A stretch of DNA of 64,000 nt from Candidatus Saccharimonadota bacterium. Lineage in GTDB: Bacteria; Patescibacteriota; Saccharimonadia; UBA4664. The stretch is taken from assembly GCA_019352195.1 (NCBI GenBank), contig JACAFG010000003.1:64956-128955 (forward strand). Reading direction: 5' to 3'. Shown in pieces: positions 17,124-31,444 of this stretch. A model generated the notes under the pieces. It searched no databases, was not told where the DNA came from, and saw only the letters and a list, made by a program, of their open reading frames with translations. The position numbers and the translations under genes are program-made. How positions within the stretch are numbered: position 1 is the stretch's first letter; the number at the start of each line of letters is the position of its first letter.

Positions 17124-17166
17124 CAAACGAAGAACACCCTCGTCAAACCGTAGCCTGACGAGGGTG
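17124..17166 (-). terminator. Rho-independent terminator of the tRNA transcription unit
   Basis: Perfect 11-bp stem caccctcgtca/tgacgagggtg (17135-17166) followed on the minus strand by TTCTTCGTTT. Confidence 0.6.
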
Positions 17167-17292
17167 CGAACGAGCTGGACGTGGGGCATTTGAATAGTAA
17201 GAGGCGACACCAGCTTTACCAGGTGGACGCGGTTAAGCCATGGTCGCCGGCTACTGATGTGCTGAGGTGCAGTCTCAACACATCCTCGATCG

Positions 17293-17366: not shown

Positions 17367-17467
17367 AGCGAACCTGCGTAGCAAACTTCGAAACGAGAGC
17401 AAATTTGACCGCTAACGCCATTAAAACCGGAGGCAATTAGCAGTAATACGAACTTCGTTCCCTCGGC

Positions 17468-17538
17468 TGGACTTGAACCAGCAACCATCAGGAGCGCAGT
17501 CTGATGCTCTACCTTGAGCTACGAGGGATAAGCATCGC
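17468..17538 (-). tRNA. tRNA, probably Arg (anticodon GCG), with atypical features
   Basis: Arg-type D-arm TAGCTCAAGGTAGAGCA and T-arm GCTGG-TTCAAGT-CCAGC. Acceptor pair 1-72 is U-A and there is an A31-C39 mismatch. Anticodon assignment is tentative. Confidence 0.45.
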
Positions 17539-17691
17539 GAGGATGCTAGGGTAAAACGTTCACCAGACCAACTTCGGTCCTAACGTCTGACTGCGGCCGG
17601 CACCTAATGCGCCTGCTTGTCAGCTTGATCGGGATGTAGTTAGTGTGGATTGATCTTTGTTCGAAACGAGCGTGCGTCGAACAACTCGACT

Positions 17692-17720
17692 ACTTTAGCT
17701 GTTCGGTACTACTTGGTCAA
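17692..17720 (-). promoter_or_regulatory. Candidate promoter for the tRNA operon: -35 TTGACC, 17-nt spacer, -10 TAAAGT (minus strand)
   Basis: Hexamers read on the reverse complement, about 150 nt upstream of the first tRNA. Confidence 0.35.
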
Positions 17721-17724
17721 GCCT

Positions 17725-17765
17725 AAAAACGAGAAGACCCCGCCACGGCCCAAGCCGTGACGGGG
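17725..17765 (-). terminator. Terminator of the small-ORF array
   Basis: Hairpin ccccgccacggc...gccgtgacgggg (one mismatch) followed on the minus strand by TCTTCTCGTTTTT. Confidence 0.55.
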
Positions 17766-17801
17766 TCTGGTGAACTCGGGCGACGAACTCGATAAGGATC
17801 G

Positions 17802-17918
17802 TCAGATCAGCTTGCAGCGGTGGCCGCGCTTGACCGGCTGACTCGGGCGAGGCAGCGGTTCGCCAATGACACCGCGGCGCGGAGCGCCCGGCTTCTTGCC
17901 AAAATCCCAGAGGACCAT
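17802..17918 (-). CDS. Small ORF 3 (38 aa), third member of a paralogous small-protein array
   Basis: SD-like GAAAGG lies 8 nt before the ATG. N-terminus VLWDFGKKPG resembles GLFDFFGSTG of ORF 2. Below the ORF-track size cutoff. Confidence 0.3.
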   Translation of the reverse strand: MVLWDFGKKPGAPRRGVIGEPLPRPSQPVKRGHRCKLI

Positions 17919-17976
17919 TCGGGACGCCTTTCTGGAAGTCGGTGACGACGAGGGTTCTCGTCGCCAGCTGATGCGA

Positions 17977-18177
17977 TCAGTGACCGGTCACTGATCGGTG
18001 CCGTTTGAGCTTGGCGGCGGAGTCGAACTTCTTGCTGCACGACGATTTGGGACACGCGAACGCCACGGCCCGGCCGGTGATGGCACTGGTTCTGACCTTG
18101 GCCGCGGGAGAAATGAGACTTCCCGACGGGCGACCGGAACTGGTTCCCGTGCTTCCGAAGAAATCGAACAATCCCAT
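17977..18177 (-). CDS. Small ORF 2 (66 aa), CP-x3-CS-x2-F motif, C-x4-C-x12-H-x5-H pattern
   Basis: SD AGGGAG lies 6 nt upstream. The stop codon is embedded in a perfect 22-bp palindrome GATCAGTGACCGGTCACTGATC (17974-17995). Confidence 0.45.
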   Translation of the reverse strand: MGLFDFFGSTGTSSGRPSGSLISPAAKVRTSAITGRAVAFACPKSSCSKKFDSAAKLKRHRSVTGH

Positions 18178-18231
18178 GACTTACTCCCTAGAGAATCGGT
18201 GGAAATGCGGAGGGTACTGCGACCTGACGCG

Positions 18232-18435
18232 TCAGACGCGCCAGATACTTCGGGGCTTGGCGCCGTGCGCGGCCGCCAAGTGCTGTTCCAGCCTGATTTT
18301 GTCGATGCGTGCGCTCGTGCCGGGGCCGCCAAAATGCGCGGAACACGGTTGGCGAGGGCACATCTTCGACGGTGGATACGGCGTGTTTGACGCGGGCCGA
18401 AAAATTCCGCCCATCAAGCCGTCGAGCCAATTCAT
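18232..18435 (-). CDS. Small ORF 1 (67 aa), paralog of ORF 2 (motifs CPRQPCSAHF versus CPKSSCSKKF)
   Basis: SD GGGAGG lies 5 nt upstream of the ATG. The stop overlaps the 12-bp palindrome CTGACGCGTCAG. Confidence 0.45.
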   Translation of the reverse strand: MNWLDGLMGGIFRPASNTPYPPSKMCPRQPCSAHFGGPGTSARIDKIRLEQHLAAAHGAKPRSIWRV

Positions 18436-18458
18436 AAAAACCTCCCGAAAGTAGGAGT

Positions 18459-18482
18459 CCCCGGCGGCGCATGCCGCCGGGG
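18459..18482. terminator. GC-rich hairpin ccccggcggc-gcat-gccgccgggg, 15 nt 3' of the hydrolase gene
   Basis: Perfect 10-bp stem. The T-tract is not adjacent (GGTTTTTAT lies 20 nt downstream on the minus strand), so it may be a terminator or attenuator. Confidence 0.45.
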
Positions 18483-18496
18483 ACTTGACTGGGTAC

Positions 18497-21346
18497 TTAC
18501 TTACCGCCGCCCTGCGCCTTCCACGCGTAGGGGTTGGCGAAGCCGATAAGCCCGCCCCAGGTGCTGACGGTACTTATTTTGACTACGTCGCCGCTCTGGG
18601 GGGCGCTAATCATCTTGTCGCCGCCGAGATAGATTCCGACGTGACCGGGATTACCGGGACCACCGTCTGCGCCCGTAAAGAATACCAGGAAACCTGGCTG
18701 GGCGTGAGCTTCGTCGTAGACGCGGTAGTTCGCCATGTTGACCCACTGGTCGTTGGCGACCTGACCGATGTTGGGCATCCCGATCTGTCCGAAGACATAC
18801 CGAGTGAGGCCTGAACAGTCGAAACCGACGATATTGCAGTCGTTCTGGGCACCGTTAGGTCCACAAATGCCCGTGGACGGTCCGTTGACGCCGCCGCCGC
18901 CCCAAGAATAGTTCGTACCGAGCTCGGTTTTGGCAACAGCGATGACCTTAGCAGGATCACCGCCGGCGGCGGTGATCAGTTGACCCAGCACACCACCTTG
19001 ACCGGGGGAACCAGTGTCAGTGGTGCAGTTGGGGTCGGGTGTGGGACCGGAACCTCCACCGCCAAGCGCTTGGGCAAGATGCACTACTTGGTCGGCGTAG
19101 AGCTGGTAGACGTACTGGAACCTAGACGGGTCAGGGTTGCGAATACCCCCGCCGTAGCCGAAATCTTTTTGGCCATTGTACTGCTCGGCGGCTGCTCGCA
19201 GCGCCGCCATATTGGCGCCAACTCTCGCCCCGTCGTGGCCAATGTAGTTGGCCTCAGCGTAGGCTTCATCCGTGAAGTTGTTGATATCCGGATGACCCGG
19301 GACGGCGTAGGCCGCCCAGGCAGCTGGACCGAACTGAAACGGGCCCGTGAACCCGGGTTGTTGCGGCCACTCCCCCGTTGTCCCATAGGTGGCGAGGTGC
19401 CACTCGGGACTGGTGGTGGTCAGACTACTGAAGGCCGAGGGGTTGTGGTTGCTGTCGTAGTACTTGTACTCGAACGTGAAGCCATTTTGCTCAGTTAGAT
19501 ACATCGTCGCGACCGCTACCGGGGGAACATTTTCGGCTTTGGCAGCAGCAATCATGATCGAGCGCAGCGGCTCCGGTACCATCTTGGCATCAAGACCGCC
19601 AGGAATGGCACCCGTGGGACTGGTGAGACTACCCACCACGCCAGTGGTAGTTGTGCTTGGCGACGTGGTGGGAGCCGGCTTAGGCAGGGCTTGGATCAAG
19701 CCAAACTGCCACTTCTCGGCGAGCACGTGGCTATCGTCAACCTTGGTGGTAAGCGACTGAGCCAGTGCAAAATCAGCGGCAAACTCGTCGGACGAGCTGA
19801 CGTTGAACAGGGCTAGATCGGCCCCGGCGTTGAGCGAATCGGCGATGCGCTGACCCACCGGGCCAGTGCCAGCGCCCACCATTCCTCCGAGTTCATCGGT
19901 GATGGCGAGCCCTGAAAAACCGGTGACGTTACGCAGGTACGCGTAGGCGGCTGGACTCTCACTGGCGGGTTTACCGCTTGTGAGACCTGGAACGCTGAGA
20001 TGCCCCACCATAACCGACAAATTCTTGGTGCCGGCGAGGGTCTTAAAGGGCACTTCGTCAACGGTTGCCATTTGGGACTGGGGCGGGGTTACCGGCAAGC
20101 TGGTGTGCGAGTCGGCAGTGGTTCGCCCGTGTCCGGGAAAGTGCTTTACGACCGCCAGAACCTTCTGGCTAGCGAGCCCCGCAATGAAGGGAGCCGCCGC
20201 CCGGGAAATGACGGTCGGACTGCTGGAAATACCCCGGTCATACTGTCCGATGACCGGATTTGACGCCACCTGGAGGTCGACACTGGGCGCGAAGTCCATG
20301 TTGACGCCGGCGGCGGCCAGTCCGGCGCCCAAACGGGCACCTTCCTGACGAGCCAGATCGGCGCTCATGCTGGCGAGATCACTCGCCCGCTTGCCCGTGG
20401 CTAAGCCGAACGAGTTCACGCTCGACGTGTATTCCTGGTCGGTGGCGATAAGCAGCGGCGTCTGGGCGGCGGCCTGGAAGGACTTGATGCCGCTTTTCAG
20501 GTCGGAACTCACTCGTCCAGGGCTACCACTGCTTGGCAGAAAGAACCCGGCGACGTTGGGCTCGAGAGCCAAAATCGCCAGACCAGTAGCCGTATTGGGA
20601 ACGCCCACAAACAAATGCTGGGCGAACTGATCGGCCGTGGTTTCGGTGGAAGCGGTAACAAACGTAACTGCCAGTCCGTTGGCCCGCATGGTCGCCACCG
20701 ATTTGGCATACGCCTTTTGGATGGCGGCTGCCGTTGGGGACGCCGGAAAATCAGCAATCCCCGTGGCCGCGTTATAAGCCGTCTCTTCGGCCGCTTTGCC
20801 GGGGTTCGTTGCCCACAACGTTGGATCAACGTTGTGGGCCGCGTTCACGTAGCGAGGCAGCTCGTAGTTGGTGGCCTGAGCGGCGTTGAGAGCCTGGGCA
20901 ATGGAAATGCCCGCGTTGGCCCCCGAACCCGGGTCATAGAGCTGATCGACTCCGTACGCTCCGGCACGCACCAGCTTGGGACTACTCCCGCTGGTAAGCT
21001 CGGCGCCTACCAGCATAGCGAGGGTGATGTCGGAATTACCCGACGTATCTTCGATGATGGCCTGGACCAGCGTGTCGGTGGCCGGCGCGGTGCCAAGGGT
21101 ACCTGGCGGAATCGCGTTCGGATTGGGACACGCTAGGCCACCGATAGGATCTCCGGACGCCCATTGGAGCAGCGCCGTGGAGACCTGCATGAGGTCGGCG
21201 GGATTACCGCTGAGAGCTCCGGCCACCACTTCGGCGCCGTTGATGACTTTCTGGGCGATCGTAACTATCCCGACCGTAATGAACAGGATGAAAGCGACCA
21301 CGACGGCCGCAATCTTCATTAACAGACTACGGCGCATGCCGCTCAC
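18497..21346 (-). CDS. Multi-domain secreted peptidoglycan hydrolase: GH3 beta-N-acetylglucosaminidase (NagZ-like) + central lysozyme/transglycosylase-like region + C-terminal NlpC/P60 endopeptidase
   Basis: N-terminal TM/signal. KHFPGHG GH3 motif. C-terminal DCSGL...HVGIY...(NlpC/P60 Cys-His). The real start is probably the ATG at 21337 (SD AGGAGGTGA). Confidence 0.85.
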   Translation of the reverse strand: MSGMRRSLLMKIAAVVVAFILFITVGIVTIAQKVINGAEVVAGALSGNPADLMQVSTALLQWASGDPIGGLACPNPNAIPPGTLGTAPATDTLVQAIIEDTSGNSDITLAMLVGAELTSGSSPKLVRAGAYGVDQLYDPGSGANAGISIAQALNAAQATNYELPRYVNAAHNVDPTLWATNPGKAAEETAYNAATGIADFPASPTAAAIQKAYAKSVATMRANGLAVTFVTASTETTADQFAQHLFVGVPNTATGLAILALEPNVAGFFLPSSGSPGRVSSDLKSGIKSFQAAAQTPLLIATDQEYTSSVNSFGLATGKRASDLASMSADLARQEGARLGAGLAAAGVNMDFAPSVDLQVASNPVIGQYDRGISSSPTVISRAAAPFIAGLASQKVLAVVKHFPGHGRTTADSHTSLPVTPPQSQMATVDEVPFKTLAGTKNLSVMVGHLSVPGLTSGKPASESPAAYAYLRNVTGFSGLAITDELGGMVGAGTGPVGQRIADSLNAGADLALFNVSSSDEFAADFALAQSLTTKVDDSHVLAEKWQFGLIQALPKPAPTTSPSTTTTGVVGSLTSPTGAIPGGLDAKMVPEPLRSIMIAAAKAENVPPVAVATMYLTEQNGFTFEYKYYDSNHNPSAFSSLTTTSPEWHLATYGTTGEWPQQPGFTGPFQFGPAAWAAYAVPGHPDINNFTDEAYAEANYIGHDGARVGANMAALRAAAEQYNGQKDFGYGGGIRNPDPSRFQYVYQLYADQVVHLAQALGGGGSGPTPDPNCTTDTGSPGQGGVLGQLITAAGGDPAKVIAVAKTELGTNYSWGGGGVNGPSTGICGPNGAQNDCNIVGFDCSGLTRYVFGQIGMPNIGQVANDQWVNMANYRVYDEAHAQPGFLVFFTGADGGPGNPGHVGIYLGGDKMISAPQSGDVVKISTVSTWGGLIGFANPYAWKAQGGGK

Positions 21347-21349
21347 CTC

Positions 21350-22225
21350 CTAAGGGTGAAACGAAGTTAGAGTCCACGTACCATCGTGGAACTCCCAGTC
21401 GGACACCGGCCAACTGGCCGATGATGGGGTGTTGGTGGCGTAATTCGGCGTCATGAGCACGCGTCCTTTTGCCGACACTTCCTGAAACGACACCGGCATC
21501 TTGACGTTCATCTGATTACCGATGAGGGTGAACTGTGCCACCTTAAGATCGATGGCAGCGTTGGTCATGGACACACCTGCGGCCTTGAGCTTGTTCAGCT
21601 CGGTGCCCATATCGGTACCGAGCGGGAGTCCCTCCAAAACGCTCGGAGGAACCACCGCAGGACCTAGCTTGGCGATCCGCGCCTGACGCGATGCGACATT
21701 GTCGGAGGGCAAAACTTGGTAGTAGGCGGCCACAAAGTTCTCCAGGTTGACCTTCAGCAAACGAGTATCCGGCGTCCCGGCCGGAAAACCGGCCGGGATT
21801 GACGGAATAACGATCGCTGGCAGAGTCGGCACTGTTGTATAGGCCTCGATAGGCGGCACTGGGGCGTCGCTCGCAAGCTCCGCACCCGAACTGACTGCCG
21901 CCGAACTGGCCGGCACCGAACTCGTTTGGGACGTGGACGATGCCGGCACGGTCGAAGCTTGGCTGTGCGACTTACCGAGCAGCGTAATAACAATCACCAC
22001 GGTGAAAACCGCGAAGAGAGCTGCTACAGCGATTCTGCCATACTGCAGCTCTCGCCAGTCGAAACGGCCAGACTGGCGATTGCGCTTGGGCTGCTCGGTG
22101 CTCATACCGTCACTCCCGTAGCTTCGTACAGACCCGACCGAACATAGCGCGGGTCGGTTTGTTCGGCAAACGGAACGCGGTCGACCATCTGGTCGTTGGA
22201 CGAGTTGGCGCCGATGATATCCCAC
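21350..22225 (-). CDS. Bitopic membrane protein (VirB8-like topology: cytoplasmic N-terminus, one TM, Ser/Thr-rich linker, extracytoplasmic domain)
   Basis: The likely start is the internal ATG at 22105, overlapping the upstream stop as ATGA. The stop lies inside the SD of the hydrolase gene. Confidence 0.6.
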   Translation of the reverse strand: MGYHRRQLVQRPDGRPRSVCRTNRPALCSVGSVRSYGSDGMSTEQPKRNRQSGRFDWRELQYGRIAVAALFAVFTVVIVITLLGKSHSQASTVPASSTSQTSSVPASSAAVSSGAELASDAPVPPIEAYTTVPTLPAIVIPSIPAGFPAGTPDTRLLKVNLENFVAAYYQVLPSDNVASRQARIAKLGPAVVPPSVLEGLPLGTDMGTELNKLKAAGVSMTNAAIDLKVAQFTLIGNQMNVKMPVSFQEVSAKGRVLMTPNYATNTPSSASWPVSDWEFHDGTWTLTSFHP

Positions 22226-23586
22226 TCATCAGGCAACACTTTGTGAGTGAAAAAAATGGGATACGGTAGCGTCGACACCATCATGGCCCATTGACTTGGC
22301 CGAAGCTGATGGACAATGCGCATCTGGGCATCGTTGAAGCCCATCGCGCGGCAATCGGCAATCCCCTCGTCGTCGTTCTCTTCGAGGTGGCCGACGATTC
22401 GGGTGGAAATGGTCTGCCGCAAAATCTCGGCGTTGTTGTGATGATCAGTGCCATAGCCGCCGACACCGGTGATCTGTTGCGTATACTGCGCGATCTCGAT
22501 ATCCCAGGTGGGGAAACGGCGTGTAATAGCCGCTGATCGAGCTCGCATCGACGCGTAATCGGGGCTGGACATGGCCTGGTGGCCTTCGTCGTTGGCATTG
22601 ATATGCGGAATGAGGTGGTCAAGTTGGCGCAGGTGCGCCACCGACAACCACTGCCATTGCAGTGTTTCGAGCAGACCCTGGCCCTTGGCTGGCATACCCA
22701 GCCAATACCAGTTGGCAAAGCGGGCCCCGAGGAAATCGGCCATGCCGCCCATGTGACTGAACGTACGGCCAAAATCTTTGTCGAGGATGCGGTAAAAATC
22801 GGCCGCAAGTAAATGAGCCCGCGAAACAATTTGTCCAACCTCGTCATCGAGCCTGTCATCAGCACGAAACACGCGCTGTTTGATCTCGTAGTACAGGCCG
22901 GGATTGTGCTTGAACCGCTCGTGATAGATCTTGCGCTGCTCCTGGCGACCTTTGAGCTTGTTCGCTTCGACGTCGGCGCGAGAGACGGTGGACAGCGCGT
23001 CGGCAAAATATCTCAGCGACGATACTTTCGGTTTCGCCCACAGCTCATCGACCCCGACACTGATCGCGGCCAAGTCGTATGAGTCATACTCGCGACCCGA
23101 CGAACGTTGGCCCATGATCACAGCCGTCTCGATGTGATCGAAACGGTCGAGACCAATGTCCATAGCGAAGGGGTTAACCAACGGTTCGGTGGCCAGATTG
23201 AACGTTTTGCCACCGCACTTACGGGTTAGAGCGGCGTCTTCCGACTCCCCGTTTTCCGCCTTGCGGCTGTGATCGCGAATGCGCATCATCGCCACTGTAC
23301 CGTCGAGGTTCTTGCCGGCTTGGAGGCCGAGTGCCCGAGCGATAGTGGTCTTCTTCAGCGTCGATTTGCGCGCCTTGATCTGGGCGGTGATGAGCCACGT
23401 ATTGGCAAATGTCATGTCTTGGTCTTGCTGCAGCCACGGATGAACCGCAAACCGCCTGCGATTGTAAAACTCCGTCCCAAGGTATACACCCCGGGTCGAA
23501 AACGGCATGGGAGCCGTGTAGGGCCAGCTGAGAGCAAAACTCTCAAGCGTGCCCGGCAGCGTACGCATTTGGGACATGGAGTTCAC
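22102..23586 (-). CDS. Hypothetical ~490-aa soluble protein with a possible degenerate ParA-like P-loop (IKARKSTLKKTT)
   Basis: The likely start is the ATG at 23577 after SD AGAGGTG. No canonical Walker A. Confidence 0.6.
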   Translation of the reverse strand: MNSMSQMRTLPGTLESFALSWPYTAPMPFSTRGVYLGTEFYNRRRFAVHPWLQQDQDMTFANTWLITAQIKARKSTLKKTTIARALGLQAGKNLDGTVAMMRIRDHSRKAENGESEDAALTRKCGGKTFNLATEPLVNPFAMDIGLDRFDHIETAVIMGQRSSGREYDSYDLAAISVGVDELWAKPKVSSLRYFADALSTVSRADVEANKLKGRQEQRKIYHERFKHNPGLYYEIKQRVFRADDRLDDEVGQIVSRAHLLAADFYRILDKDFGRTFSHMGGMADFLGARFANWYWLGMPAKGQGLLETLQWQWLSVAHLRQLDHLIPHINANDEGHQAMSSPDYASMRARSAAITRRFPTWDIEIAQYTQQITGVGGYGTDHHNNAEILRQTISTRIVGHLEENDDEGIADCRAMGFNDAQMRIVHQLRPSQWAMMVSTLPYPIFFTHKVLPDEWDIIGANSSNDQMVDRVPFAEQTDPRYVRSGLYEATGVTV

Positions 23587-23755
23587 CTCTTTCGAAAATT
23601 GGACAAAAACGGATATATTGGACTTTCAATTTCAAGGTTCGAGACGCTGCTAGGCACCTCGGATATACGTTTTAAGCTAAAACATATATCTGAAGCGCTT
23701 AGCTGTCTCGGGTGGAAAAGCTCCACCCGAGACAGCGGCACGGACATGCAACTGC

Positions 23756-25597
23756 TTACATCATGGGAAGACCCAGATTGGCGCACTGGGCGGCGCGGAA
23801 CTGGCGTGCAGCGCCGGTGACACGCTTGGCCACGTGCTTCTTGGACTTGATGATATTCACGACCGTGCGGATGTCGGCCTCCAGTTGATCGTGCGAGGTC
23901 GCAAGAATCGAGAAGATCCGCGTGTAGTCGGCGCCGTAACCACTCTCGTGCAGCTCGACGCGGCGAGCTTCACCACGCTTGCGCCGATCCTTGGCCGCCA
24001 AGGTGTTGAGCCTCAACCCAGTTCCTTCGGAGAAAGCGTCCTTAAAGCCCGACGCCAGTGTGAGCCACAGAACCTGCAGCTGACTGTTGGTGCTCTCCGA
24101 GAGGGTGGCTTGCGAAAAGTGGATCTTCCGCGCGCCCAGATTGATTTGCCGGTAGTAGTCGGGCAGAACCAACTTGTCCTGCCGTTCGGTGGTATTGGCC
24201 GTGATGACCAAGGTAGCGATGAACGTGCCATCGACGATGCAAAAATCGCGTCCCTGGTAAATGTACTTTCTCGGCCAATGCGGTGACAGCGACTCTGCGA
24301 CAAGATCCTCGAAGTCGCTTGGGGTACCAACAAACTTGGCCCCCAGGCGTTTGCGCGTGTCTTCCTCGGTCTCGTTGACCGAGTCGAGGTGCTCCATACG
24401 CCACGCGTTGTACTCATCGGAATCCGTGATGTGGAGCCCGTTGTAGACGAAATCGCGAGTCTCGGCCAAATCGAGGACATGCGGATCCTCGATCGCGTTC
24501 TGCTCGAGGCCGCCGGTCACCGTATCGATGATCGTCTTGATGTCGGAGGCGCTGAAATCATCCAGCGCCAAACTCCTGCGCTTGGCAGCCCGACTCCATT
24601 CACCCGTACGGCGAATGGACCAAATAGTGACTTGGTCGATATCGAGCTCATTGAGCGCGGAGAACGCCACCGACTGCTGGTATAACCGCCCCGACAAGGC
24701 GAGTCCGTCACACTCCTGATCGGTAAATCCCTCCGCCAAGATCTCATAGGCCTCGTTGGAGAGATTGCCCACCGCGGGATTGATGAGCGCGATGGCCATC
24801 GGATGGTAGTCTTCCTGGAAATCACGTTGGAGCACGAACCGGTCGACCGGTCGAGACCGGTCAAGCGAGGTTACGCGCACCGAGAACTTGTGCTGACCTA
24901 GGGAGACTTCACGGACGACGTCGACGAAGCCGCGATTGCTGTCGGCGGCACTCAGCAGGTCCCAGTTCTTGGTACTGCCGGCGCCGGTCACCACGAAGTA
25001 GTCGGCTTTGGTTACGGGATCGTAAATGCAGGTGTAGACCACGCCACCAGACGCGACGTCATTGGGGTCACCAATGCGGTAAATCTTCAGCCGGATCGGC
25101 CGCCGATTGGGGAAGGGCCGGCGATGACGCTTGGGCTTTACTTCCTCGTTGTTACTGGGCGGTCGGCCCTTCTTTGCGTTAGACCGGGCCTTAGCTTTCG
25201 CCTTGGCTTCAGCCTTAGCTTGGGCTCTCGCTCTCGACTCGGAGTTGCGGTCAGTTTTGGCCGGAATTGGTATAACCCCATCGAAATCGGAAGACATCCA
25301 GAGGACGCCACCGTTCACGACCCCGTGCCACTGACTGACAAACCACTGGCCGAGAACTATGTACACCCGGCCAAAGGTCATCCGCAGAAAAAACATGATC
25401 CAGATTGCAATGCCGATCAACCAGCTATACTGTCCTGGAATGCGCAACTGGATGTAAAAGTCGAGTAGAACGAAGAAGACAAGCGCAATGTGATCACGCC
25501 GGTCGTCGAAACGGAGAAAATTCATCACCGTCCGAGCCGGTATTTTCACATACAATTCGCGAATGTCCCGGCCATCAATTTCTGTTGGACTTGTCAT
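23756..25597 (-). CDS. Large membrane protein (2 N-terminal TM helices, basic KAEAKAKAKA linker, ~450-aa domain)
   Basis: Strong SD AAGGAGG. No recognised catalytic motif. Confidence 0.65.
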   Translation of the reverse strand: MTSPTEIDGRDIRELYVKIPARTVMNFLRFDDRRDHIALVFFVLLDFYIQLRIPGQYSWLIGIAIWIMFFLRMTFGRVYIVLGQWFVSQWHGVVNGGVLWMSSDFDGVIPIPAKTDRNSESRARAQAKAEAKAKAKARSNAKKGRPPSNNEEVKPKRHRRPFPNRRPIRLKIYRIGDPNDVASGGVVYTCIYDPVTKADYFVVTGAGSTKNWDLLSAADSNRGFVDVVREVSLGQHKFSVRVTSLDRSRPVDRFVLQRDFQEDYHPMAIALINPAVGNLSNEAYEILAEGFTDQECDGLALSGRLYQQSVAFSALNELDIDQVTIWSIRRTGEWSRAAKRRSLALDDFSASDIKTIIDTVTGGLEQNAIEDPHVLDLAETRDFVYNGLHITDSDEYNAWRMEHLDSVNETEEDTRKRLGAKFVGTPSDFEDLVAESLSPHWPRKYIYQGRDFCIVDGTFIATLVITANTTERQDKLVLPDYYRQINLGARKIHFSQATLSESTNSQLQVLWLTLASGFKDAFSEGTGLRLNTLAAKDRRKRGEARRVELHESGYGADYTRIFSILATSHDQLEADIRTVVNIIKSKKHVAKRVTGAARQFRAAQCANLGLPMM

Positions 25598-25608
25598 GTC
25601 TCCCCTCC

Positions 25609-26682
25609 TTAGGGCTCGACGGTATCGGCTTCGGCCTTATTACGGTGGTGGTGGTGGACCACCATGAGAGCAGCAGCAGCGGTCCCCGAGAGGGGATTCG
25701 TTGATGATGCCAAGTAGACCGCCCCCTTGAGGGCGCCATAGGCCAATGCGCCGTGGACGACTTTCTTCGGAAGCGAGGTCGGCTTGTACTGGGGTTCAGC
25801 CGGCGGCATCATGTTTTGCGCGTAGTTGTTGTTCACCGTGTCCGCGCTCACTGCTGGCTGGCCGCGCCAATCGAACCTGGTTTGGCCGCTCATGCGCTGC
25901 CGGACCTGCTCAGTCTTGGTCGCCACATAGCTATGCGTCGACTTGAGCATGTAAAACAGGCCGTACCTCGCCACTGCCAGACCGGCGATGAGCGAGACGA
26001 TGGCACCGAACGAAGTGACCGTGGCGGTCTTGCCGCTCACGTACTCCGACAGCACCAGGCACCCCATAACAAAGGGGGCGCCAGCAAACAGCGACACAAA
26101 GCCGATGCTCACGAGCCAGTCGAACGCCGCCTTCATCTTCTGCGACACCACGCTCAGGACAAGCATGGGCAGAAACAGAATCTCGAAGAGGATGATGGCG
26201 ATGCCAAAGATGTAGAACATCACGATGAGGACAATGATGTACCACGACGCCGGCACGAGTCCGACCAGTCCGGCCAAAACACCCGGAATGCTGGGAATGG
26301 TGATGATGCCATTCAGGGGATTCGTCCCGCCCAGATTGAAGAAGTAGTCAGTAATTTTCTGACTGAGGCTTTGCAGCGAGTCACAGAAGCGGAAGAAGAC
26401 TCCCCCACCAATGACGGTCAGAAAAAAGAAGACAACCAACGACTTCACCGCGTACATGAGCCGGCGCTGCATAACAGCACCGATCATGAGCAATACCAAG
26501 GTGATACTCACGGAAAGCATATTGGCAAAGCTCCACGAAGCACCATAGAGCACGTACTGCCAGTCGCCTGGCGGAACACGCGGCGGCTTGATGAGAACCG
26601 CCTTGAGTGCGAGGTTGAGCGTTCGTACAAACGCGCCGACCATGGTCAGAATACCGGAGAGGATAGTACTGATTATGTCCAT
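25609..26682 (-). CDS. Polytopic membrane protein (at least 6 TM; VirB6/TrbL-like topology), His-rich C-terminus
   Basis: SD AGGAGGAGGTGA. Multiple long hydrophobic helices. Confidence 0.65.
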   Translation of the reverse strand: MDIISTILSGILTMVGAFVRTLNLALKAVLIKPPRVPPGDWQYVLYGASWSFANMLSVSITLVLLMIGAVMQRRLMYAVKSLVVFFFLTVIGGGVFFRFCDSLQSLSQKITDYFFNLGGTNPLNGIITIPSIPGVLAGLVGLVPASWYIIVLIVMFYIFGIAIILFEILFLPMLVLSVVSQKMKAAFDWLVSIGFVSLFAGAPFVMGCLVLSEYVSGKTATVTSFGAIVSLIAGLAVARYGLFYMLKSTHSYVATKTEQVRQRMSGQTRFDWRGQPAVSADTVNNNYAQNMMPPAEPQYKPTSLPKKVVHGALAYGALKGAVYLASSTNPLSGTAAAALMVVHHHHRNKAEADTVEP

Positions 26683-26758
26683 CGTTCACCTCCTCCTAGA
26701 GGACGAATGGCCTGGAGCGCGATCCGCACTCCAGGCCATATTCGACGGGACCGGAGTG

Positions 26759-27217
26759 CTAGTAGCAGCCGGGGACCTCTTTGTTGACGGCCGCCGTGAA
26801 GATCTTCAGGACGATCGCCAGAATCACGAGACCGATGGTCGCGAAACGAAGAGCGATCAACAGCGGTCGCAGCGTGACCAGGGCCAACAGTGCGCCACAG
26901 ACGAGTGCCATCAGGGCCACTGAGTAGAAGAGGATCGTCACAACGCCGTACGTCTCGCTGACCACTCCGATGAGTGGCAGCTTCATGATGTTGGCGGCGT
27001 CGCAGCTGCCGCTGTTGATGTAGGACCCCTGGTTGGGACCTCCGCCGCCCGTGGGTGCGGCCGGGACGGCCATGGCCATGGACGCGGAGGTCAACAGCAT
27101 GGTGAACATGCCGCCCAGAACGACGACGCCGCGGGCTGCGGCGGCGCGGAGCCGCACGTACGTTTCGATCATGGCACTACCTTCTTTCTGGTGGGGGTGG
27201 GTAAGACTGCAGCTCAC
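26759..27217 (-). CDS. Pilin-like small protein (signal peptide + two hydrophobic helices; VirB2/TrbC-like architecture)
   Basis: The likely start is MIETYV at 27172 (SD AGAAGGTAG). A signal ends ...SASMAMA. Cys residues sit near the mature N-terminus (SGSCD) and at the C-terminus (PGCY). Confidence 0.55.
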   Translation of the reverse strand: MSCSLTHPHQKEGSAMIETYVRLRAAAARGVVVLGGMFTMLLTSASMAMAVPAAPTGGGGPNQGSYINSGSCDAANIMKLPLIGVVSETYGVVTILFYSVALMALVCGALLALVTLRPLLIALRFATIGLVILAIVLKIFTAAVNKEVPGCY

Positions 27218-28859
27218 CGTAGAGGTTCACAGCTTGGAGCTGAGGGTGGTACCGCGTACCTGTTTCGGCCACCTGATCGATGTGAGAGATGTCGACTCCA
27301 CGCGTATCAGCGGAAATGCGCAGAGCCTGTTCGGCAACCTTCATGTAGGCCAAGAAGGTCTGCATGTCGATCGCGTTGGGGTCACACACGGTTCCCCGCT
27401 TGCTGGCGATGTACGGATCGTACGGGACGGTCATGCACTTGCCGGCGAACTTGTCGGTTGGTACCGCGTGGGCCGATTGGCGCGCAGTTCGGGTAAGTTG
27501 ATCAAAATCGATCTCCTCGCCCACACGAATGGCGTTCACGACCACGATTGATTTCTTGACCTTCTTAGGGGTCTGAACGAATCCTGGCTGGCCAGCAATC
27601 TCTGCCGGAGGCTCGGTGTCCGTTCGATACGCGTCCATCGTGCTCGTGAGCATGAGGCGCGTGATCTCGACGTCGGCCTTGCAGTTGAAGATGATCACCG
27701 TGGCTTTCCGGGCACCGGCCAGAACAATGCTGTCCTCGTTGACGTCGTCGTTGCCCGTATCGAGCCCCATCGTATGGCAGTTGGGGTAGAGGGCATCGAA
27801 CATCCGGTTGAATGTCTGCACCGTCAGCTCGCTGTGGTCGTTGATGACGCTGTTAGGGTTCCCCGAAATGACGCCGAGCCCGATCCGCGGAGTTGTGTTG
27901 ATGAAACTCCACAGCTTTTTGTTTGTCGGATTCGGATCGTCCTCGAGCAACTTCACCAACTTGCCGATGGTGAAGAGCACTTCGGAGTAGATATCGAAGC
28001 CGGCATCGTGTCCGGCCGTGCTCGTGGCGGAGTTCTTGGTGGTCGGAAGCAGGAGCGTGTCCTTGCCGCCAAACAACCTGATGATCGCCAGCACGTACAA
28101 CAACAGGGTGGTCTTGGCGGCCGTGCCCTTGATGTTGGCACTGAGAATGACCGGGTCGATCCCTGGAGTCTGGACGAGCGCGTAGATTCTGGCGCCCGTC
28201 ATGAAGACGTCGTTGTAGAAATCGGCGACTTTCTGGCGAGCTTCCCTCTGACGCGACTCTTCTGCTTGCTCGAGCAGCCGGCGCTGATGCTCCTCGGCGC
28301 TGCGGGCATGCCGAAGCGCCATGAGTTTGTCGATCTGTTCTTTGCTGAGCTTCAGGCTCTTGGGAAACTCTCTCGTTGCGCGGTCGGGGTGCAGCAAGAC
28401 GAACCTGCGTAGGGCGAACCAGTTGCCGAGCCCGCCGTCCTCCGCGATTCGGCGCTCGTCCGGATCCAGGGGATCTGGCTTGATGACCGGGGGTGGAGGC
28501 GAGGTGGGCACGGCCATGCCGTCCTTGATGGTGGGGATGGGCCCAGTCAGGGCATCACTCACCGTTCGGAGGTCGAGGGCCGGGTGCGGCTCAGAAGACT
28601 TGTCCAGAGACACGACCCTCTGGCCGACGGACGCCGCCTCTCCGGTAATGGCGGACACTGCCCGGAGTGTGGGCGATGCCGGTCGCACCACGGGTGCCGG
28701 GCCTCGACCCGTTAGCGCAATACTGGTATCTGGACGTGCGGCAGAGTCAGGACGGCGGCGAGGTAGCCGGTCGTCACGGGCTGGTTCGGACATGGCAAAA
28801 TCCCTTCGGAACGGTAAAAACCTTGGAAAATGGACGGAAGTTAAAATGCTGTAGAACAT
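27177..28859 (-). CDS. Protein with C-terminal ParA/MinD/CpaE-like domain bearing a degenerate deviant Walker A (KGTAAKTT) and an N-terminal Pro-rich/coiled region
   Basis: IKGTAAKTTLLLYVLAIIRLFGGKDTLLLPTTKNSATS parallels ParA [38 protein letters not shown]. The likely start is MSEPARDD at 28793 (SD GAAGGG). Confidence 0.6.
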   Translation of the reverse strand: MFYSILTSVHFPRFLPFRRDFAMSEPARDDRLPRRRPDSAARPDTSIALTGRGPAPVVRPASPTLRAVSAITGEAASVGQRVVSLDKSSEPHPALDLRTVSDALTGPIPTIKDGMAVPTSPPPPVIKPDPLDPDERRIAEDGGLGNWFALRRFVLLHPDRATREFPKSLKLSKEQIDKLMALRHARSAEEHQRRLLEQAEESRQREARQKVADFYNDVFMTGARIYALVQTPGIDPVILSANIKGTAAKTTLLLYVLAIIRLFGGKDTLLLPTTKNSATSTAGHDAGFDIYSEVLFTIGKLVKLLEDDPNPTNKKLWSFINTTPRIGLGVISGNPNSVINDHSELTVQTFNRMFDALYPNCHTMGLDTGNDDVNEDSIVLAGARKATVIIFNCKADVEITRLMLTSTMDAYRTDTEPPAEIAGQPGFVQTPKKVKKSIVVVNAIRVGEEIDFDQLTRTARQSAHAVPTDKFAGKCMTVPYDPYIASKRGTVCDPNAIDMQTFLAYMKVAEQALRISADTRGVDISHIDQVAETGTRYHPQLQAVNLYGELQSYPPPPERR

Positions 28860-28922
28860 GTTGTAAGCAGTTTTTCAAGGAGCTGGTCATTTAACCCATC
28901 TGGTGCTCAACTTCCGGATGGA

Positions 28923-28943
28923 GGTTGACCAATGGGGTTGACC
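28923..28943. promoter_or_regulatory. Tandem GGTTGACC direct repeats (13-bp period) in the divergent promoter region
   Basis: GGTTGACC at 28923-28930 and 28936-28943, within the 350-bp AT-richer gap between the operon and the divergent 29208 gene. Confidence 0.3.
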
Positions 28944-29207
28944 CGGATATTGCTACCCGGTTCCGGAAGCTGATTTTAGGCTTATATTGAGCTTAAAATC
29001 GTACTTGCAGAATCGATCAACAATAATCATTACGCTTGGCTCAAAATCCTAGCGAGACCGTACCACTTTTTATATTTGATGACAAGCACAACCGTCTAGC
29101 ATCTATTAATAGTTGCCATTTGAACATTAATATCGTATAAACCACCCATAGATGACCCAGTGAAATTGGTTCACCCACCTTCATAATCCAAGTCCTAGGG
29201 AGACCTC

Positions 29208-30596
29208 ATGACCGGTCCTACGCCGCCGGCACCATCGACACCACCCGAACCACCGAAACCACCGCGCCACCGACCGCAGTCGACTTTTCAAAGAATGTTG
29301 GAGCCCGAAACCGCCGAGCTGACCTTCGAAGATTACGTCGAAGGGAGCGAACGCAGAGGCCTGAACGCACTGTTGTGCAGCGGCGCCGTCGTGATGCTCG
29401 GCTTTCTTGTCTTCGTGCTCACCCAGCTCGCGTGGCTAAAAGCCACCATCCTGTCGGTTTGGTGGGTGAATGTGCTCATTTGGGCCGTTCTCAGCCTGAT
29501 TGCCGTGTGGATCATTCTGCGGGCGCGTGCTGAGATGGAGTGGATCAACCAAGATGTTGATGCTTTTGGCCGCTACGACGAGGCACAGCCCCCCGCCGAG
29601 CGGCTGCAGGTGAAGTACGAGTGGGTTCCACGCAAGTACACCATCCGCATCTTACTGGCCAAAGTCGCCGATCAAAAAGACCGCTTCGAGGCGATCACCA
29701 AACTGCCCGTAGACAACCTCATACTCGCTACCCGGCGCAAGAAGATTGTGATGTACGCACCCATCGGGGGCATGATTGTGTTTGGGGGCCTCGTCTTGTG
29801 GACTACCAGTTGGGCGTCGGTGTATCTCCAAAACGCGGTTTACAACGTTATGGTGACGCCTCCCGGCGACAATACGTCCGCCAACAGCTTCATCGATAGT
29901 TTGGTAGCCAAGGCCCAAAGCGCGGCCGTCAGTTTCAGCTTCGACTGGCACTGGCTCGTTGGGATGGCAATATTGCTAACCGCCGGTGTCTTCTTGTTGC
30001 GTTTGGCCGTGAGGCACGTTCGGCGTCGGGGCGATGCCAGACGAGCAGCTCGGAGCGAGAACGCGGTGAGGGAACCACATCTGGGCTACTGGACAATCAG
30101 CCTCCTCATTGCTTTGGCAGCGAGCGCAATTGTCGTGAATTTGTGGCACGCCATCGACGTGACTCAGGTTTACCGCAATACCTTCGAAGGCCAATCGGCG
30201 CCCCTCCACCATGTCTTTTCCGGCTTGCCCAGCTGGTTTGGTATCGGTGTCTGGGTATTGGTGGCGCTTTACGGTGTGGGCGCGGTGCTAAGGTGGATGA
30301 GCTTCGTCGTAGCGCTCATGACCACGAGCATTCAGCTGGTGCCCTTGTGGCCTGGCTGGTTGTTCTGGGTGGGGCGTAACCCGGCCATTTTGTACGTCGA
30401 CCGGATCGACCTCAACAACTACAAACAGTCGGTTTGGGGGCGCATCTTCAGATATTGCACTCTCATCATCGACTCACCGGCCCAAAAAGACCGGCAGTTC
30501 AACCACATTTTGGGCATGCCCAAACCCGACGTCATATTGGCCACTATCAACTCCATCGTGAAGGCCAGGCTCCTGATTCAACCGCCCTCAATCTGA
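29208..30596 (+). CDS. Polytopic membrane protein (462 aa) with a Pro-rich N-terminus
   Basis: SD AGGGAG. Many hydrophobic helices. Divergent from the envelope operon. Confidence 0.6.
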   Translation: MTGPTPPAPSTPPEPPKPPRHRPQSTFQRMLEPETAELTFEDYVEGSERRGLNALLCSGAVVMLGFLVFVLTQLAWLKATILSVWWVNVLIWAVLSLIAVWIILRARAEMEWINQDVDAFGRYDEAQPPAERLQVKYEWVPRKYTIRILLAKVADQKDRFEAITKLPVDNLILATRRKKIVMYAPIGGMIVFGGLVLWTTSWASVYLQNAVYNVMVTPPGDNTSANSFIDSLVAKAQSAAVSFSFDWHWLVGMAILLTAGVFLLRLAVRHVRRRGDARRAARSENAVREPHLGYWTISLLIALAASAIVVNLWHAIDVTQVYRNTFEGQSAPLHHVFSGLPSWFGIGVWVLVALYGVGAVLRWMSFVVALMTTSIQLVPLWPGWLFWVGRNPAILYVDRIDLNNYKQSVWGRIFRYCTLIIDSPAQKDRQFNHILGMPKPDVILATINSIVKARLLIQPPSI

Positions 30597-30600
30597 CCCA

Positions 30601-30640
30601 AAGGCCCGGCAGCGCGAAAGCGTTGCCGGGCCTTGTCATT
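30601..30640. terminator. Hairpin aaggcccggc...gccgggcctt between convergent genes
   Basis: 10-bp perfect stem (30601-30610 / 30625-30634) with a structured loop. Weak T-tract. Confidence 0.45.
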
Positions 30641-30655
30641 GGTGATCGCTATTAT

Positions 30656-31444
30656 TTAGGCGGCTTTACGCACGAGCAAAAACATACTGGGGCCAAAATT
30701 GGCGCTGGCGAGCGTGGTTTGCATGACGTTTTCGAGTCCCAGCATGAGCTGACGTGGCAAGACTTTTTTAAGTCCTGGGCTACGTAAGTTTGAGACCGAT
30801 AATTTGCGCTCCACGGTTAAACCGGCGGCAGCCAGCTGGCGTTCCACCGTCGCAGGATGGTGGTTAACAAAGGCAATGCCCCCGTCGGCTGTGCTGGCGG
30901 CGGAAGCCACGTTGATGGGCGTCGCGGGGATTTTTTCGCCTTTGAGCGTGGCCTTGATGCGGTTACGCGCATGGGTGGAGTTAGCGACTTCGAGAATGAG
31001 ATAGCCGCCCGGCGCTAGCACCCGGCTGAGCTCCGCAAACTCTGGCTCTGGCTTCGGTAGGTGGTGCATGACGCGGATCATGGTAATAAGATCAAGCTCG
31101 CCGTCGTTAAACTTGAGTTCGTCAGCCTGCATTTGGACGCGGTCGATCTCGGGGTGATCTTTGAGGAATTCAGCCCCAATATCAAGCTGCTGCTGGCTTG
31201 GTTCGGCGAGGGTAACGCGGTCGGCATATTGTTCCAAAAAGACGCATAAGCGCCCGTAACCACCGCCAATATCAGCGGCACGCTTAAAGTGTTTGCCGTC
31301 AAGCAGACGCGTAATGGCCATTCGTTCGGCCTCGTTTTCGTAGTCGCGGCCGTCCCAATAATGAAGATAATTATGGCTGGGATCATCGTACTGATTGGCT
31401 GGTTTGTGGGAAGTTGGTTCTGACATATTTGAGTATTTTAACAT
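30656..31444 (-). CDS. Class I SAM-dependent methyltransferase
   Basis: Motif I DIGGGYGRL, acidic motif II, 262 aa. Confidence 0.8.
   Translation of the reverse strand: MLKYSNMSEPTSHKPANQYDDPSHNYLHYWDGRDYENEAERMAITRLLDGKHFKRAADIGGGYGRLCVFLEQYADRVTLAEPSQQQLDIGAEFLKDHPEIDRVQMQADELKFNDGELDLITMIRVMHHLPKPEPEFAELSRVLAPGGYLILEVANSTHARNRIKATLKGEKIPATPINVASAASTADGGIAFVNHHPATVERQLAAAGLTVERKLSVSNLRSPGLKKVLPRQLMLGLENVMQTTLASANFGPSMFLLVRKAA

What the first reader, a model, noticed from the sequence alone, without database searches (positions are those of the whole stretch)
17770..18460. Array of three paralogous small ORFs, each with a strong SD, two terminating inside perfect palindromes
On the minus strand, between the hydrolase hairpin and a clean terminator (17725-17765), three tandem ORFs (67, 66 and 38 aa) begin 5-8 nt after GGGAGG / AGGGAG / GAAAGG. 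They share an N-terminal G-L-x-x-x-F-G-like motif. ORF 1 and ORF 2 share CP[RK]x[PS]CSxxF and C-x4-C...H-x4/5-H spacing (zinc-ribbon/C2H2-like). The ORF 2 stop lies inside the 22-bp perfect palindrome GATCAGTGACCGGTCACTGATC, and the ORF 1 stop lies inside CTGACGCGTCAG. The patch is much more GC-rich (~65%) than its flanks. The layout resembles precursor-peptide or small-effector arrays, or a family of small zinc-binding proteins with palindromic processing or binding sites.
Basis: seen in the sequence. Interest (0 to 1): 0.65.

Follow-up and report, generated by a model that had tools for sequence, protein, structure and literature searches.

The report
Orphan small zinc-finger-like ORFs
Downstream of a cell-wall hydrolase gene in an uncultured Saccharibacteria genome lie three unannotated small ORFs, one ending in a near-textbook C2H2 zinc-finger motif that overlaps a rare 24-bp perfect palindrome; nothing like them is found in any other genome, so whether they are real genes remains open.

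Summary
They differ in weight.

More than chance:
- The 24-bp perfect palindrome (about 0.005 expected per window).
- The full classical C2H2 consensus in ORF2 (its only six-frame occurrence in 64 kb; under 0.02 expected).
- The tiling of ATG+SD ORFs (0.4% to 0.025% of composition-matched nulls).
- Coding scores of ORF2 and ORF3 above chance ORFs.

At chance level or overstated:
- The 12-bp palindrome.
- "Strong SD" for ORF2 and ORF3.
- Three-way paralogy (ORF1–ORF2 p about 0.03; ORF3 not significant).
- The GC contrast, which exists only towards the tRNA/tig side.
- Hairpin density, which matches the neighbouring CDS.

No homologue of any ORF was found in the protein-database searches run (ORF1 and ORF2), in the metagenome, viral or phage scans, or in related Saccharibacteria loci. 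The annotation on record calls no gene here.

Best reading (about 0.45): an operon tail of lineage-specific, basic micro-proteins. ORF2 is a single-finger C2H2 protein, ORF1 a degenerate paralogue and ORF3 uncertain. Main rival (about 0.3): chance ORFs in a non-coding spacer. The precursor-peptide reading is not supported. Interest is modest.

The parts
18456..18485 (-). 13-bp perfect GC-rich hairpin (loop AUGC), 11 nt after the hydrolase stop. It has no proper U-tract directly after the stem, so it is probably a leaky terminator or stabiliser.
   Evidence: I8; -35 kcal/mol with flanks; flags only weak terminator-like sub-hairpins at 18464-18445 and 18457-18442
18441..18446 (-). GGGAGG Shine-Dalgarno of ORF1, 5 nt before the ATG. 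It is the only strong SD of the three.
   Evidence: 6-nt GGAGGT match; at least 6 nt found at about 2% of background ATGs
18232..18435 (-). ORF1, 67 aa, basic. It has C26-x4-C31-x3-F35 ... H52-x4-H57, a non-classical spacing. Its coding score cannot be told apart from chance ORFs.
   Evidence: no homologue; no Pfam or PDB hit
18219..18248 (-). Imperfect RNA hairpin (about -17 kcal/mol) around the ORF1 stop. It contains the 12-bp palindrome CTGACGCGTCAG (18224-18235). Both are at chance level for this GC content.
18184..18189 (-). AGGGAG SD-like motif, 6 nt before the ORF2 ATG (moderate).
17977..18177 (-). ORF2, 66 aa, with a low-complexity N-terminal half. Its coding score lies in the top 0.2-5% of chance ORFs.
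17980..18060 (-). ORF2 residues 40-66: a classical CX4C-type C2H2 zinc-finger motif, F-x-C-x4-C-x3-F-x5-L-x2-H-x5-H. The last His is the last residue.
   Evidence: only occurrence in the six-frame window; under 0.02 expected; zf-C2H2 E=0.009, below cut-off; 5 Lys in 27 aa, p=1.3e-3
17974..17997 (.). 24-bp perfect palindrome CGATCAGTGACC|GGTCACTGATCG. It encodes R-S-V-T-G-H-stop of ORF2, and as RNA it forms a 9-10-bp hairpin with a CCGG loop.
   Evidence: I12; about 0.005 expected per window; unique in the window; absent from the metagenome and viral collections
17943..17966 (-). Second hairpin (GGCGACGAG-AACC-CUCGUCGUC) between ORF2 and ORF3.
17927..17932 (-). GAAAGG, a weak SD-like motif 8 nt before the ORF3 ATG.
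17802..17918 (-). ORF3, 38 aa, very basic, with no Cys/His finger. Its coding score lies in the top 0.7-1.9% of length-matched chance ORFs. Its N-terminus MVLWDFG resembles MGLFDFFG of ORF2.
17725..17768 (-). Strong intrinsic terminator (15-bp stem, 11 GC pairs, then UCUCGUUUUU) that closes the transcription unit.
   Evidence: (-40 kcal/mol with flanks)

Best explanation
The 690-nt stretch is the unannotated tail of the hydrolase transcription unit. It encodes two or three lineage-specific, strongly basic micro-proteins.

Transcription enters from the GH3+NlpC/P60 hydrolase gene through a U-tract-poor hairpin and stops at the strong terminator at 17735-17768 (inferred from the layout).

ORF2 (66 aa) is the best candidate for a real gene. 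It has a disordered N-terminal half followed by one classical Cys2His2 finger, which would fold around one zinc ion and bind nucleic acid or a partner protein. ORF1 (67 aa) would be an old, diverged paralogue with a stretched finger. ORF3 (38 aa) would be a truncated relative of ORF2 or a separate peptide.

The 24-bp palindrome that overlaps the ORF2 stop is a separate, selected element. It is either an intercistronic RNA hairpin or a dimer-binding DNA site. That the fingers bind it is speculation.

Shown here: the sequence features and their statistics. Inferred: translation, zinc binding, co-transcription and any regulatory role.
For: Layout: at least two non-overlapping ATG+SD ORFs of 60 aa or more arise in 0.4% of composition-matched nulls, and at least three tiled ones in 0.025%.

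Reading frames: the ORF1-3 frames are the best or tied-best of six, and none of the longer alternative ORFs (82-149 aa) wins in its own frame.

Coding scores: ORF2 lies in the top 5% / 0.2% of chance ORFs under the two models. ORF3 lies in the top 0.7-1.9% of length-matched chance ORFs. GC3 is 0.72-0.77, like the neighbouring genes.

Zinc finger: ORF2 carries the only six-frame match to the full classical C2H2 consensus in 64 kb, with under 0.02 expected. Pfam zf-C2H2 gives E=0.009. PDB fingers ZNF410, YY1 and TFIIIA give E=6e-6 to 9e-5. 46 multi-finger proteins hit at E<=1e-3 in 1.84 billion representatives, all through residues 36-63. The finger holds 5 Lys in 27 aa in GC-rich DNA, p=1.3e-3.

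Paralogy: CPxxxCSxxF is shared by ORF1 and ORF2, and all five identical residues use different codons, so the similarity is at protein level, not DNA level.

Translation and transcription signals: ORF1 has a 6-nt SD. No sigma-70-like promoter lies inside the patch, and the strong terminator comes only after ORF3.

Against a structured RNA: the inner patch folds no better than CDS controls and has no Rfam hit.
Against: No homologue of any ORF was found: the word-index search of 5.8 billion proteins, the exhaustive HMMER search for ORF2, six-frame pattern scans of metagenome and viral contigs, phage tblastn, and two related Saccharibacteria loci. Purifying selection therefore cannot be shown.

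The annotation on record calls no gene between the hydrolase and tig.

Coding scores are low for real genes, in the bottom 6-28% of real-gene pieces, and ORF1 looks like the null.

AlphaFold2 without an alignment gives pLDDT of about 54 and no fold.

The PDB and HMMER E-values are inflated by summing over repeated fingers; the best single-domain E-value is 0.37. ORF2's Pfam score of 16.8 is below the 25.2 cut-off.

ORF2 ends exactly at its last zinc ligand, uses the uncommon H-x5-H spacing, and that end is dictated by the palindrome.

The high positive charge is what chance ORFs give in this composition.

Confidence: 0.45

Rival explanations
1. The stretch is a non-coding spacer or 3' UTR. It separates the hydrolase operon from the tRNA-Arg/tRNA-Asp/tig unit in GC-rich, lineage-specific DNA. 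The ORFs, SD-like motifs and C2H2 pattern are coincidences picked out by a reader looking for them. Only the hairpins, the terminator and the palindrome are functional.
For: ORFs of at least 60 aa occur in 91% of composition-matched nulls, and five longer overlapping ORFs exist in other frames. There is no homologue anywhere and no gene call on record. ORF1's coding score is like the null and all three score below typical genes. The SDs of ORF2 and ORF3 are at background level. Three-way paralogy is not significant.
Against: The joint tiling of ATG+SD ORFs arises in 0.4% of nulls or fewer. The full C2H2 consensus with both hydrophobic core residues has under 0.02 expected per window. The finger is Lys-enriched, p=1.3e-3. 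The ORF2 and ORF3 scores lie in the top 0.2-5% of chance ORFs. The ORF frames are the best of six.
Confidence: 0.3
2. The ORFs are decaying remnants of one or more former genes, for example a longer protein with two zinc-binding modules. ORF1 and ORF2 lie in the same frame and are separated only by TGA...TAA. The present ORFs would be fragments that are no longer under selection.
For: ORF1 and ORF2 share a reading frame with only 18 codons and two stops between them (frame arithmetic). Coding scores are intermediate between genes and noise. ORF1's finger has a stretched spacing, ORF3 lacks a finger, and ORF2 ends abruptly at its last His.
Against: Each ORF has its own ATG and purine-rich SD at the correct spacing. 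Sharing a frame has a 1 in 3 chance. No intact homologue that could serve as the ancestor was found anywhere.
Confidence: 0.15
3. The patch is mainly a DNA-level element: an operator, recombination site or oriT-like site of the lineage-specific 17.7-31 kb block, with the 24-bp palindrome as its core. The ORFs are incidental.
For: The palindrome is perfect through its centre, which an RNA hairpin does not require, and is statistically exceptional. It lies at the edge of a compositionally distinct block of unknown membrane proteins plus a cell-wall hydrolase.
Against: There is a single copy, with no related half-sites or copies in the window or in the collections. No relaxase, integrase or recombinase is recognisable. 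The block ends share no repeats. There is no promoter nearby to be regulated.
Confidence: 0.05
4. The three ORFs form a RiPP or bacteriocin precursor-peptide array, or the patch is a structured non-coding RNA.
For: Tandem small ORFs on one strand; the whole-region fold gives z=-6.25.
Against: There is no shared leader or core and no maturation, transport or immunity genes. The z-score falls to -1.7, equal to CDS controls, once the two flanking terminators are removed. Hairpin density is 5.8 per kb against 7.0 per kb in the hydrolase CDS. There is no Rfam hit.
Confidence: 0.03

Closest known systems
Classical (TFIIIA/YY1/Krueppel-type) C2H2 zinc finger, Pfam PF00096
   Same: ORF2 residues 40-66 match the full consensus, including the aromatic residue two positions before Cys1, the CX4C knuckle, the F and L core residues and the two His. 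'AKLKRH' is identical to YY1-like fingers.
   Different: There is a single finger at the extreme C-terminus of a 66-aa bacterial ORF, ending on the last His, with H-x5-H spacing and no TGEKP linker. The Pfam score is below the gathering threshold. The known relatives are eukaryotic multi-finger proteins. Fold and zinc binding are unverified.
Small one-domain zinc-finger micro-proteins of archaea and bacteria (Brz of Halobacterium salinarum; Haloferax C(P)XCG proteins)
   Same: They are proteins under 70 aa with one Cys/His zinc motif. They are often unannotated, and Brz is encoded between annotated genes. Brz regulates transcription of a neighbouring gene (PMC2253796; PMC6562870).
   Different: [quoted passage not shown] ORF1 and ORF2 have CPxxxC (4 residues between) and H-x4/5-H, so they fall outside the definition. 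There is no sequence homology.
Ros/MucR prokaryotic C2H2 zinc-finger regulators
   Same: They are bacterial Cys2His2 DNA-binding proteins, and Ros binds an inverted repeat (PMC6562870).
   Different: There is no Pfam ROS_MUCR hit. From my own knowledge, the ligand spacing differs and Ros/MucR proteins are larger with a bigger globular domain. ORF2 looks like the eukaryotic type instead.
Intercistronic or 3'-end stabilising hairpins and leaky terminators in polycistronic mRNAs
   Same: Stable stem-loops sit at or just after each stop codon, and a true intrinsic terminator comes only at the end.
   Different: Hairpin density is not above that of neighbouring coding sequence. Only the 24-bp palindrome is exceptional, and its perfectly symmetric centre is not needed for an RNA hairpin.

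Membership tests
Classical C2H2 zinc finger (PF00096) | Sequence consensus (F/Y)-x-C-x2-5-C-x3-(F/Y)-x5-hydrophobic-x2-H-x3-5-H | tested here: met
   ORF2 FACPKSSCSKKFDSAAKLKRHRSVTGH matches fully and is the only six-frame match in the window. ORF1 does not: 20 rather than 12 residues separate Cys2 from His1.
Classical C2H2 zinc finger (PF00096) | Score at or above the Pfam gathering threshold | tested here: not met
   ORF2 scores 16.8 bits against a cut-off of 25.2, E=0.009. ORF1 and ORF3 have no hit.
Classical C2H2 zinc finger (PF00096) | Beta-beta-alpha fold | tested here: inconclusive
   AlphaFold2 without an alignment gives pLDDT 54.6 for ORF2 and 54.7 for ORF1, with no secondary structure. 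No alignment could be built because there are no homologues.
Classical C2H2 zinc finger (PF00096) | Binds one Zn2+ through 2 Cys and 2 His | not testable with these tools
   Needs the expressed or synthetic peptide and metal analysis.
CPxCG-related small zinc-finger proteins (Brz class) | Two Cys/His pairs, each separated by 2-3 residues, at least one pair CPxCG-like, the pairs 7-40 residues apart, and the protein under 100 aa (PMC2253796) | tested here: not met
   ORF1 and ORF2 have C-x4-C and H-x4/5-H (definition read). Only the size criterion is met.
Ros/MucR | Match to the ROS_MUCR domain | tested here: not met
   The Pfam scan at E<=1 returned only zf-C2H2-type models for ORF2 and nothing for ORF1 or ORF3.
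RiPP / bacteriocin precursor array | Copies share a conserved leader or core | tested here: not met
   ORF1-ORF2 p=0.02-0.04, confined to the Cys motif; ORF3 not significant. The three-way N-terminal comparison gives p=0.09.
RiPP / bacteriocin precursor array | Maturation enzyme, transporter or immunity gene nearby | tested here: not met
   The neighbours are a GH3+NlpC/P60 hydrolase and proteins with no Pfam, NCBIfam, PHROG or PADLOC hit.
Protein-coding gene (general) | Conservation of the open frame or purifying selection in relatives | tested here: inconclusive
   No relative carries the locus, so dN/dS cannot be computed. The organism has no close relative in the collections; the hydrolase's nearest homologues reach at most 60% identity over one domain.
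Protein-coding gene (general) | Frame-specific coding statistics above chance ORFs | tested here: inconclusive
   ORF2 is in the top 0.2-5% and ORF3 in the top 0.7-1.9% of chance ORFs, while ORF1 is at 18-36%. All three are in the lowest 6-28% of real-gene pieces.
Known RNA families (Rfam 15) | Covariance-model match | tested here: not met
   Only tRNAs reach gathering thresholds. Nothing credible appears at E<=1 in 17500-18600.
Intrinsic terminator (17725-17768) | GC-rich stem-loop followed by a U-run | tested here: met
   15-bp stem with 11 GC pairs, a 4-nt loop and the tail UCUCGUUUUU.

The most novel reading that the evidence does not exclude
A candidate-phyla-radiation bacterium carries a lineage-specific pair of micro-proteins built on a eukaryote-type CX4C C2H2 finger, either born de novo or acquired. 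As dimers, they recognise the 24-bp perfect palindrome embedded in their own locus. In this way they control the upstream operon of orphan membrane proteins and a cell-wall hydrolase, which may act in the episymbiont's interaction with its host. This would be a minimal one-finger bacterial regulator with its operator inside its own coding sequence.
Probability: 0.06. Interest if true: 0.6.

Novelty: new member of a known kind. Interest (0 to 1): 0.3.

Why it matters
If ORF2 is translated, it would be one of the smallest bacterial proteins carrying a eukaryote-style C2H2 finger, found in a lineage (Saccharibacteria) whose small proteome is essentially unexplored. It would also show that annotation pipelines miss such genes: the annotation on record calls no gene here.

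The practical value is limited. The locus is confined to one metagenome-assembled genome, has no homologues, and its function cannot be inferred from context.

The case also shows that in GC-rich DNA, long ORFs, hairpins, short palindromes and positive charge are all expected by chance and must be tested against composition-matched nulls.

Tried and rejected
- Homology for ORF2 and ORF1 in the 5.8-billion-protein word index: none.
- Exhaustive HMMER search of ORF2 against 1.84 billion representatives: only eukaryote-like multi-finger proteins, hit through the finger.
- Exact look-up of all three peptides as called genes: not on record.
- Synteny through the hydrolase: only two Saccharibacteria loci share the GH3 domain. 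They have different downstream genes, and no match to any frame or to the DNA.
- Degenerate six-frame scans with the ORF1/ORF2 alignment in viral and metagenome contigs: none.
- Palindrome search in metagenome and viral contigs, and relaxed in the window: unique.
- tblastn against phage genomes: ORF2 gave none. ORF1 gave two marginal hits (E=0.04 and 0.3), rejected because Cys26, His52 and His57 are not conserved and the target frame looks non-coding.
- AlphaFold2 on single sequences: uninformative, so no fold search was run.
- Structured-RNA idea: the whole-region z of -6.25 comes from the two flanking terminators. The inner patch gives z=-1.7, like CDS controls. Rfam gave nothing.
- Antisense 149-aa ORF and the other long alternative ORFs: none is best in its own frame, and none has an SD.
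- Mobile-element boundary idea: no shared 12-mers at the block ends and no integrase or relaxase.
- Defence-system and phage libraries for the neighbours and the ORFs: no hits.
- Another timed out after 7 of 8 control segments.
Full report
**Context.** The window comes from a Saccharibacteria (candidate phyla radiation) metagenome-assembled genome, GCA_017884045.1, contig JABBYD010000024.1. The finding lies on the minus strand. Upstream is a 949-aa membrane-anchored hydrolase with GH3 and NlpC/P60 domains (18497..21346). Downstream is a unit made of tRNA-Arg, tRNA-Asp and trigger factor. The gene calls on record list nothing between the hydrolase and trigger factor, and none of the three peptides is on record as a called gene.

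Several qualifiers do not hold.
- Only ORF1 has a strong SD. Its 6-nt match is reached by about 2% of background ATGs, while the 4-nt matches of ORF2 and ORF3 occur at about 32%.
- The patch (GC 0.59-0.63) is no richer than the hydrolase or the whole 17.7-29 kb block (0.57-0.62). It is richer only than the tRNA/tig side.
- The 12-bp palindrome is ordinary: 18 of that length were seen against about 14 expected per window.
- 'Three paralogues' is not supported. ORF1-ORF2 gives p=0.02-0.04 against shuffles and ORF3 is not significant. The three-way N-terminal motif gives p=0.09, with only ORF2-ORF3 marginal at p=0.016.

**What exceeds chance?** Composition-matched nulls were essential here, because 91% of random 691-nt sequences with this composition contain an ORF of at least 60 aa. 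Five longer overlapping ORFs exist in other frames. Hairpins of -18 kcal/mol or stronger are no denser in the patch (5.8 per kb) than in the hydrolase CDS (7.0 per kb). A net charge of about +7 per 66 aa is the chance expectation.

Four things do stand out.
1. The 24-bp perfect palindrome has about 0.005 expected per window. It is unique in the window even with 3 mismatches and absent from the metagenome and viral collections.
2. The tiling of ATG+SD ORFs is rare. At least two non-overlapping ORFs of 60 aa or more arise in 0.4% of nulls, and at least three tiled ones in 0.025%.
3. ORF2's C-terminus, FACPKSSCSKKFDSAAKLKRHRSVTGH, is the only six-frame match in 64 kb to the full classical C2H2 consensus, with under 0.02 expected. 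It has 5 Lys in 27 residues despite the GC-rich DNA (p=1.3e-3).
4. A 3-periodic Markov model was trained on the window's genes. Real 201-nt pieces score +0.043±0.046 and chance ORFs -0.044±0.021. The model puts ORF2 in the top 5% / 0.2% and ORF3 in the top 0.7-1.9% of chance ORFs. ORF1 cannot be told apart from chance.

The ORF1-3 frames are the best or tied-best of six, and none of the alternative ORFs, including the antisense 149-aa ORF that shares third positions, wins in its own frame.

**The zinc-finger signal.** Pfam zf-C2H2 matches ORF2 residues 40-63 at E=0.009, below the gathering score (16.8 against 25.2 bits). Against PDB sequences the same residues align to ZNF410, YY1 and TFIIIA fingers (E=6e-6 to 9e-5). 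Those E-values add up several fingers per target, and the best single domain has E=0.37.

The exhaustive HMMER search of 1.84 billion representatives found 46 proteins at E<=1e-3. All are long multi-finger proteins hit through residues 36-63, and none is a small full-length homologue. The ones that carry names are eukaryotic, and a Tara Oceans metagenome contig carries another with weak precomputed C2H2 Pfam hits. One hit reads FQCTHDGCGKRFLDNAKLKRHMLVHTGEKP, which shows how closely ORF2 follows the YY1-type pattern.

ORF1 keeps C-x4-C-x3-F and L-x2-H-x4-H, but with 20 rather than 12 residues between the second Cys and the first His. It has no Pfam or PDB hit. The five residues identical between the ORF1 and ORF2 motifs all use different codons. 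So the resemblance is at protein level and is not a recent DNA duplication.

**Comparative evidence: none available.** The sources checked were:
- the word-index searches;
- HMMER;
- degenerate six-frame scans of viral and metagenome contigs with the ORF1/ORF2 alignment;
- phage tblastn;
- two Saccharibacteria loci that share the hydrolase's GH3 domain.

None of these yielded a relative. Two marginal phage hits to ORF1 were rejected because the putative zinc ligands are not conserved.

The hydrolase's full architecture, and the seven upstream ORFs, are themselves unique. The nearest hydrolase relatives reach at most 60% identity over one domain, and the upstream ORFs have no Pfam, NCBIfam, PHROG or PADLOC hit, and several are multi-pass membrane proteins. 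Absence of homologues is therefore weak evidence, because the organism has no close relative in the collections and small ORFs are often not called. It does mean that purifying selection cannot be shown.

**RNA-level alternatives.** The 776-nt region folds with z=-6.25. This comes from the two flanking terminator hairpins. The inner 686 nt give z=-1.7, within the range of CDS controls from the same block, -1.65 to -4.7. Rfam finds only tRNAs. A structured ncRNA is therefore unlikely.

The layout is: the hydrolase stop, then a 13-bp hairpin with no proper U-tract, then the ORFs, then a textbook terminator at 17735-17768. No sigma-70-like promoter lies inside the patch, and the next promoter-like site (17720-17692) precedes the tRNAs. 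This layout suggests that the patch is transcribed as the tail of the hydrolase unit. That is an inference.

**Most likely explanation (about 0.45).** The patch is an operon tail encoding lineage-specific basic micro-proteins. ORF2 is a one-finger Cys2His2 protein, ORF1 a diverged paralogue and ORF3 uncertain. The 24-bp palindrome is an independent selected element overlapping the ORF2 stop, either an RNA hairpin or a dimer-binding DNA site. Its perfectly symmetric centre slightly favours a DNA-level role.

**Rivals.** These are chance ORFs in a non-coding spacer (about 0.3), decayed gene remnants (about 0.15; ORF1 and ORF2 share a frame and are separated by TGA...TAA), a purely DNA-level site (about 0.05), and a RiPP array or structured RNA (about 0.03).

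**Comparison with known systems.** ORF2 works like, and by sequence pattern belongs with, the classical C2H2 fingers, but it fails the Pfam threshold and its fold and metal binding are untested. It is analogous to archaeal and bacterial zinc-finger micro-proteins such as Brz. It falls outside their CPxCG-related definition, which requires 2-3 residues between the paired ligands (PMC2253796; PMC6562870). It does not match Ros/MucR.

**Verdict.** Novelty is modest. This is a possible new, orphan member of a known kind, confined to one MAG and unverifiable without expression data or sister genomes.

Noticed in passing
window 17700-31500: A compositionally distinct block (GC 0.57-0.62 against about 0.53-0.55 on the 1-17 kb side). 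It holds the hydrolase plus seven ORFs of 152-613 aa with no Pfam, NCBIfam, PHROG or PADLOC hit. Several are multi-pass membrane proteins (357 aa with 8 TM-like segments, 152 aa with 4, 462 aa with 6, 613 aa with 2 at the N-terminus), and none has a Walker A motif. The block is not conserved beside the hydrolase homologues of two other Saccharibacteria. It may be a lineage-specific envelope or host-interaction system.
   Followed up: partly
window 32000-47000: A low-GC stretch (0.43-0.50) directly follows the high-GC block, so the window is a three-part compositional mosaic. The genes there were not examined.
   Followed up: no
window 18497-21346 (-): The 949-aa hydrolase combines an N-terminal TM segment, GH3 and a C-terminal NlpC/P60 domain. 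This full architecture was found only in this genome among 5.8 billion proteins. The nearest relatives (43-60% identity over GH3) instead carry phage-tail-lysozyme and C39/C70-like peptidase domains.
   Followed up: partly
window 17457-17528 (-): ARAGORN reports the tRNA-Arg with anticodon GCG, at position 32 of a 72-nt tRNA. From my own knowledge, bacteria usually decode CGN with ACG (inosine-modified) and CCG tRNAs, so this may be worth a look.
   Followed up: no
window 17558-17569 and 17764-17775: A 12-nt perfect inverted repeat, GTTCACCAGACC / GGTCTGGTGAAC, 194 nt apart. It brackets the operon terminator and the promoter-like site that precedes tRNA-Arg (I10). It may be chance.
   Followed up: no
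window 17692-17720 (-) and 17134-17167 (-): A promoter-like site (TTGACC-17-TAAAGT) lies just after the ORF3 terminator and ahead of tRNA-Arg. A second strong terminator-like hairpin follows tRNA-Asp, ahead of tig. Together they suggest a separate small tRNA transcription unit.
   Followed up: no
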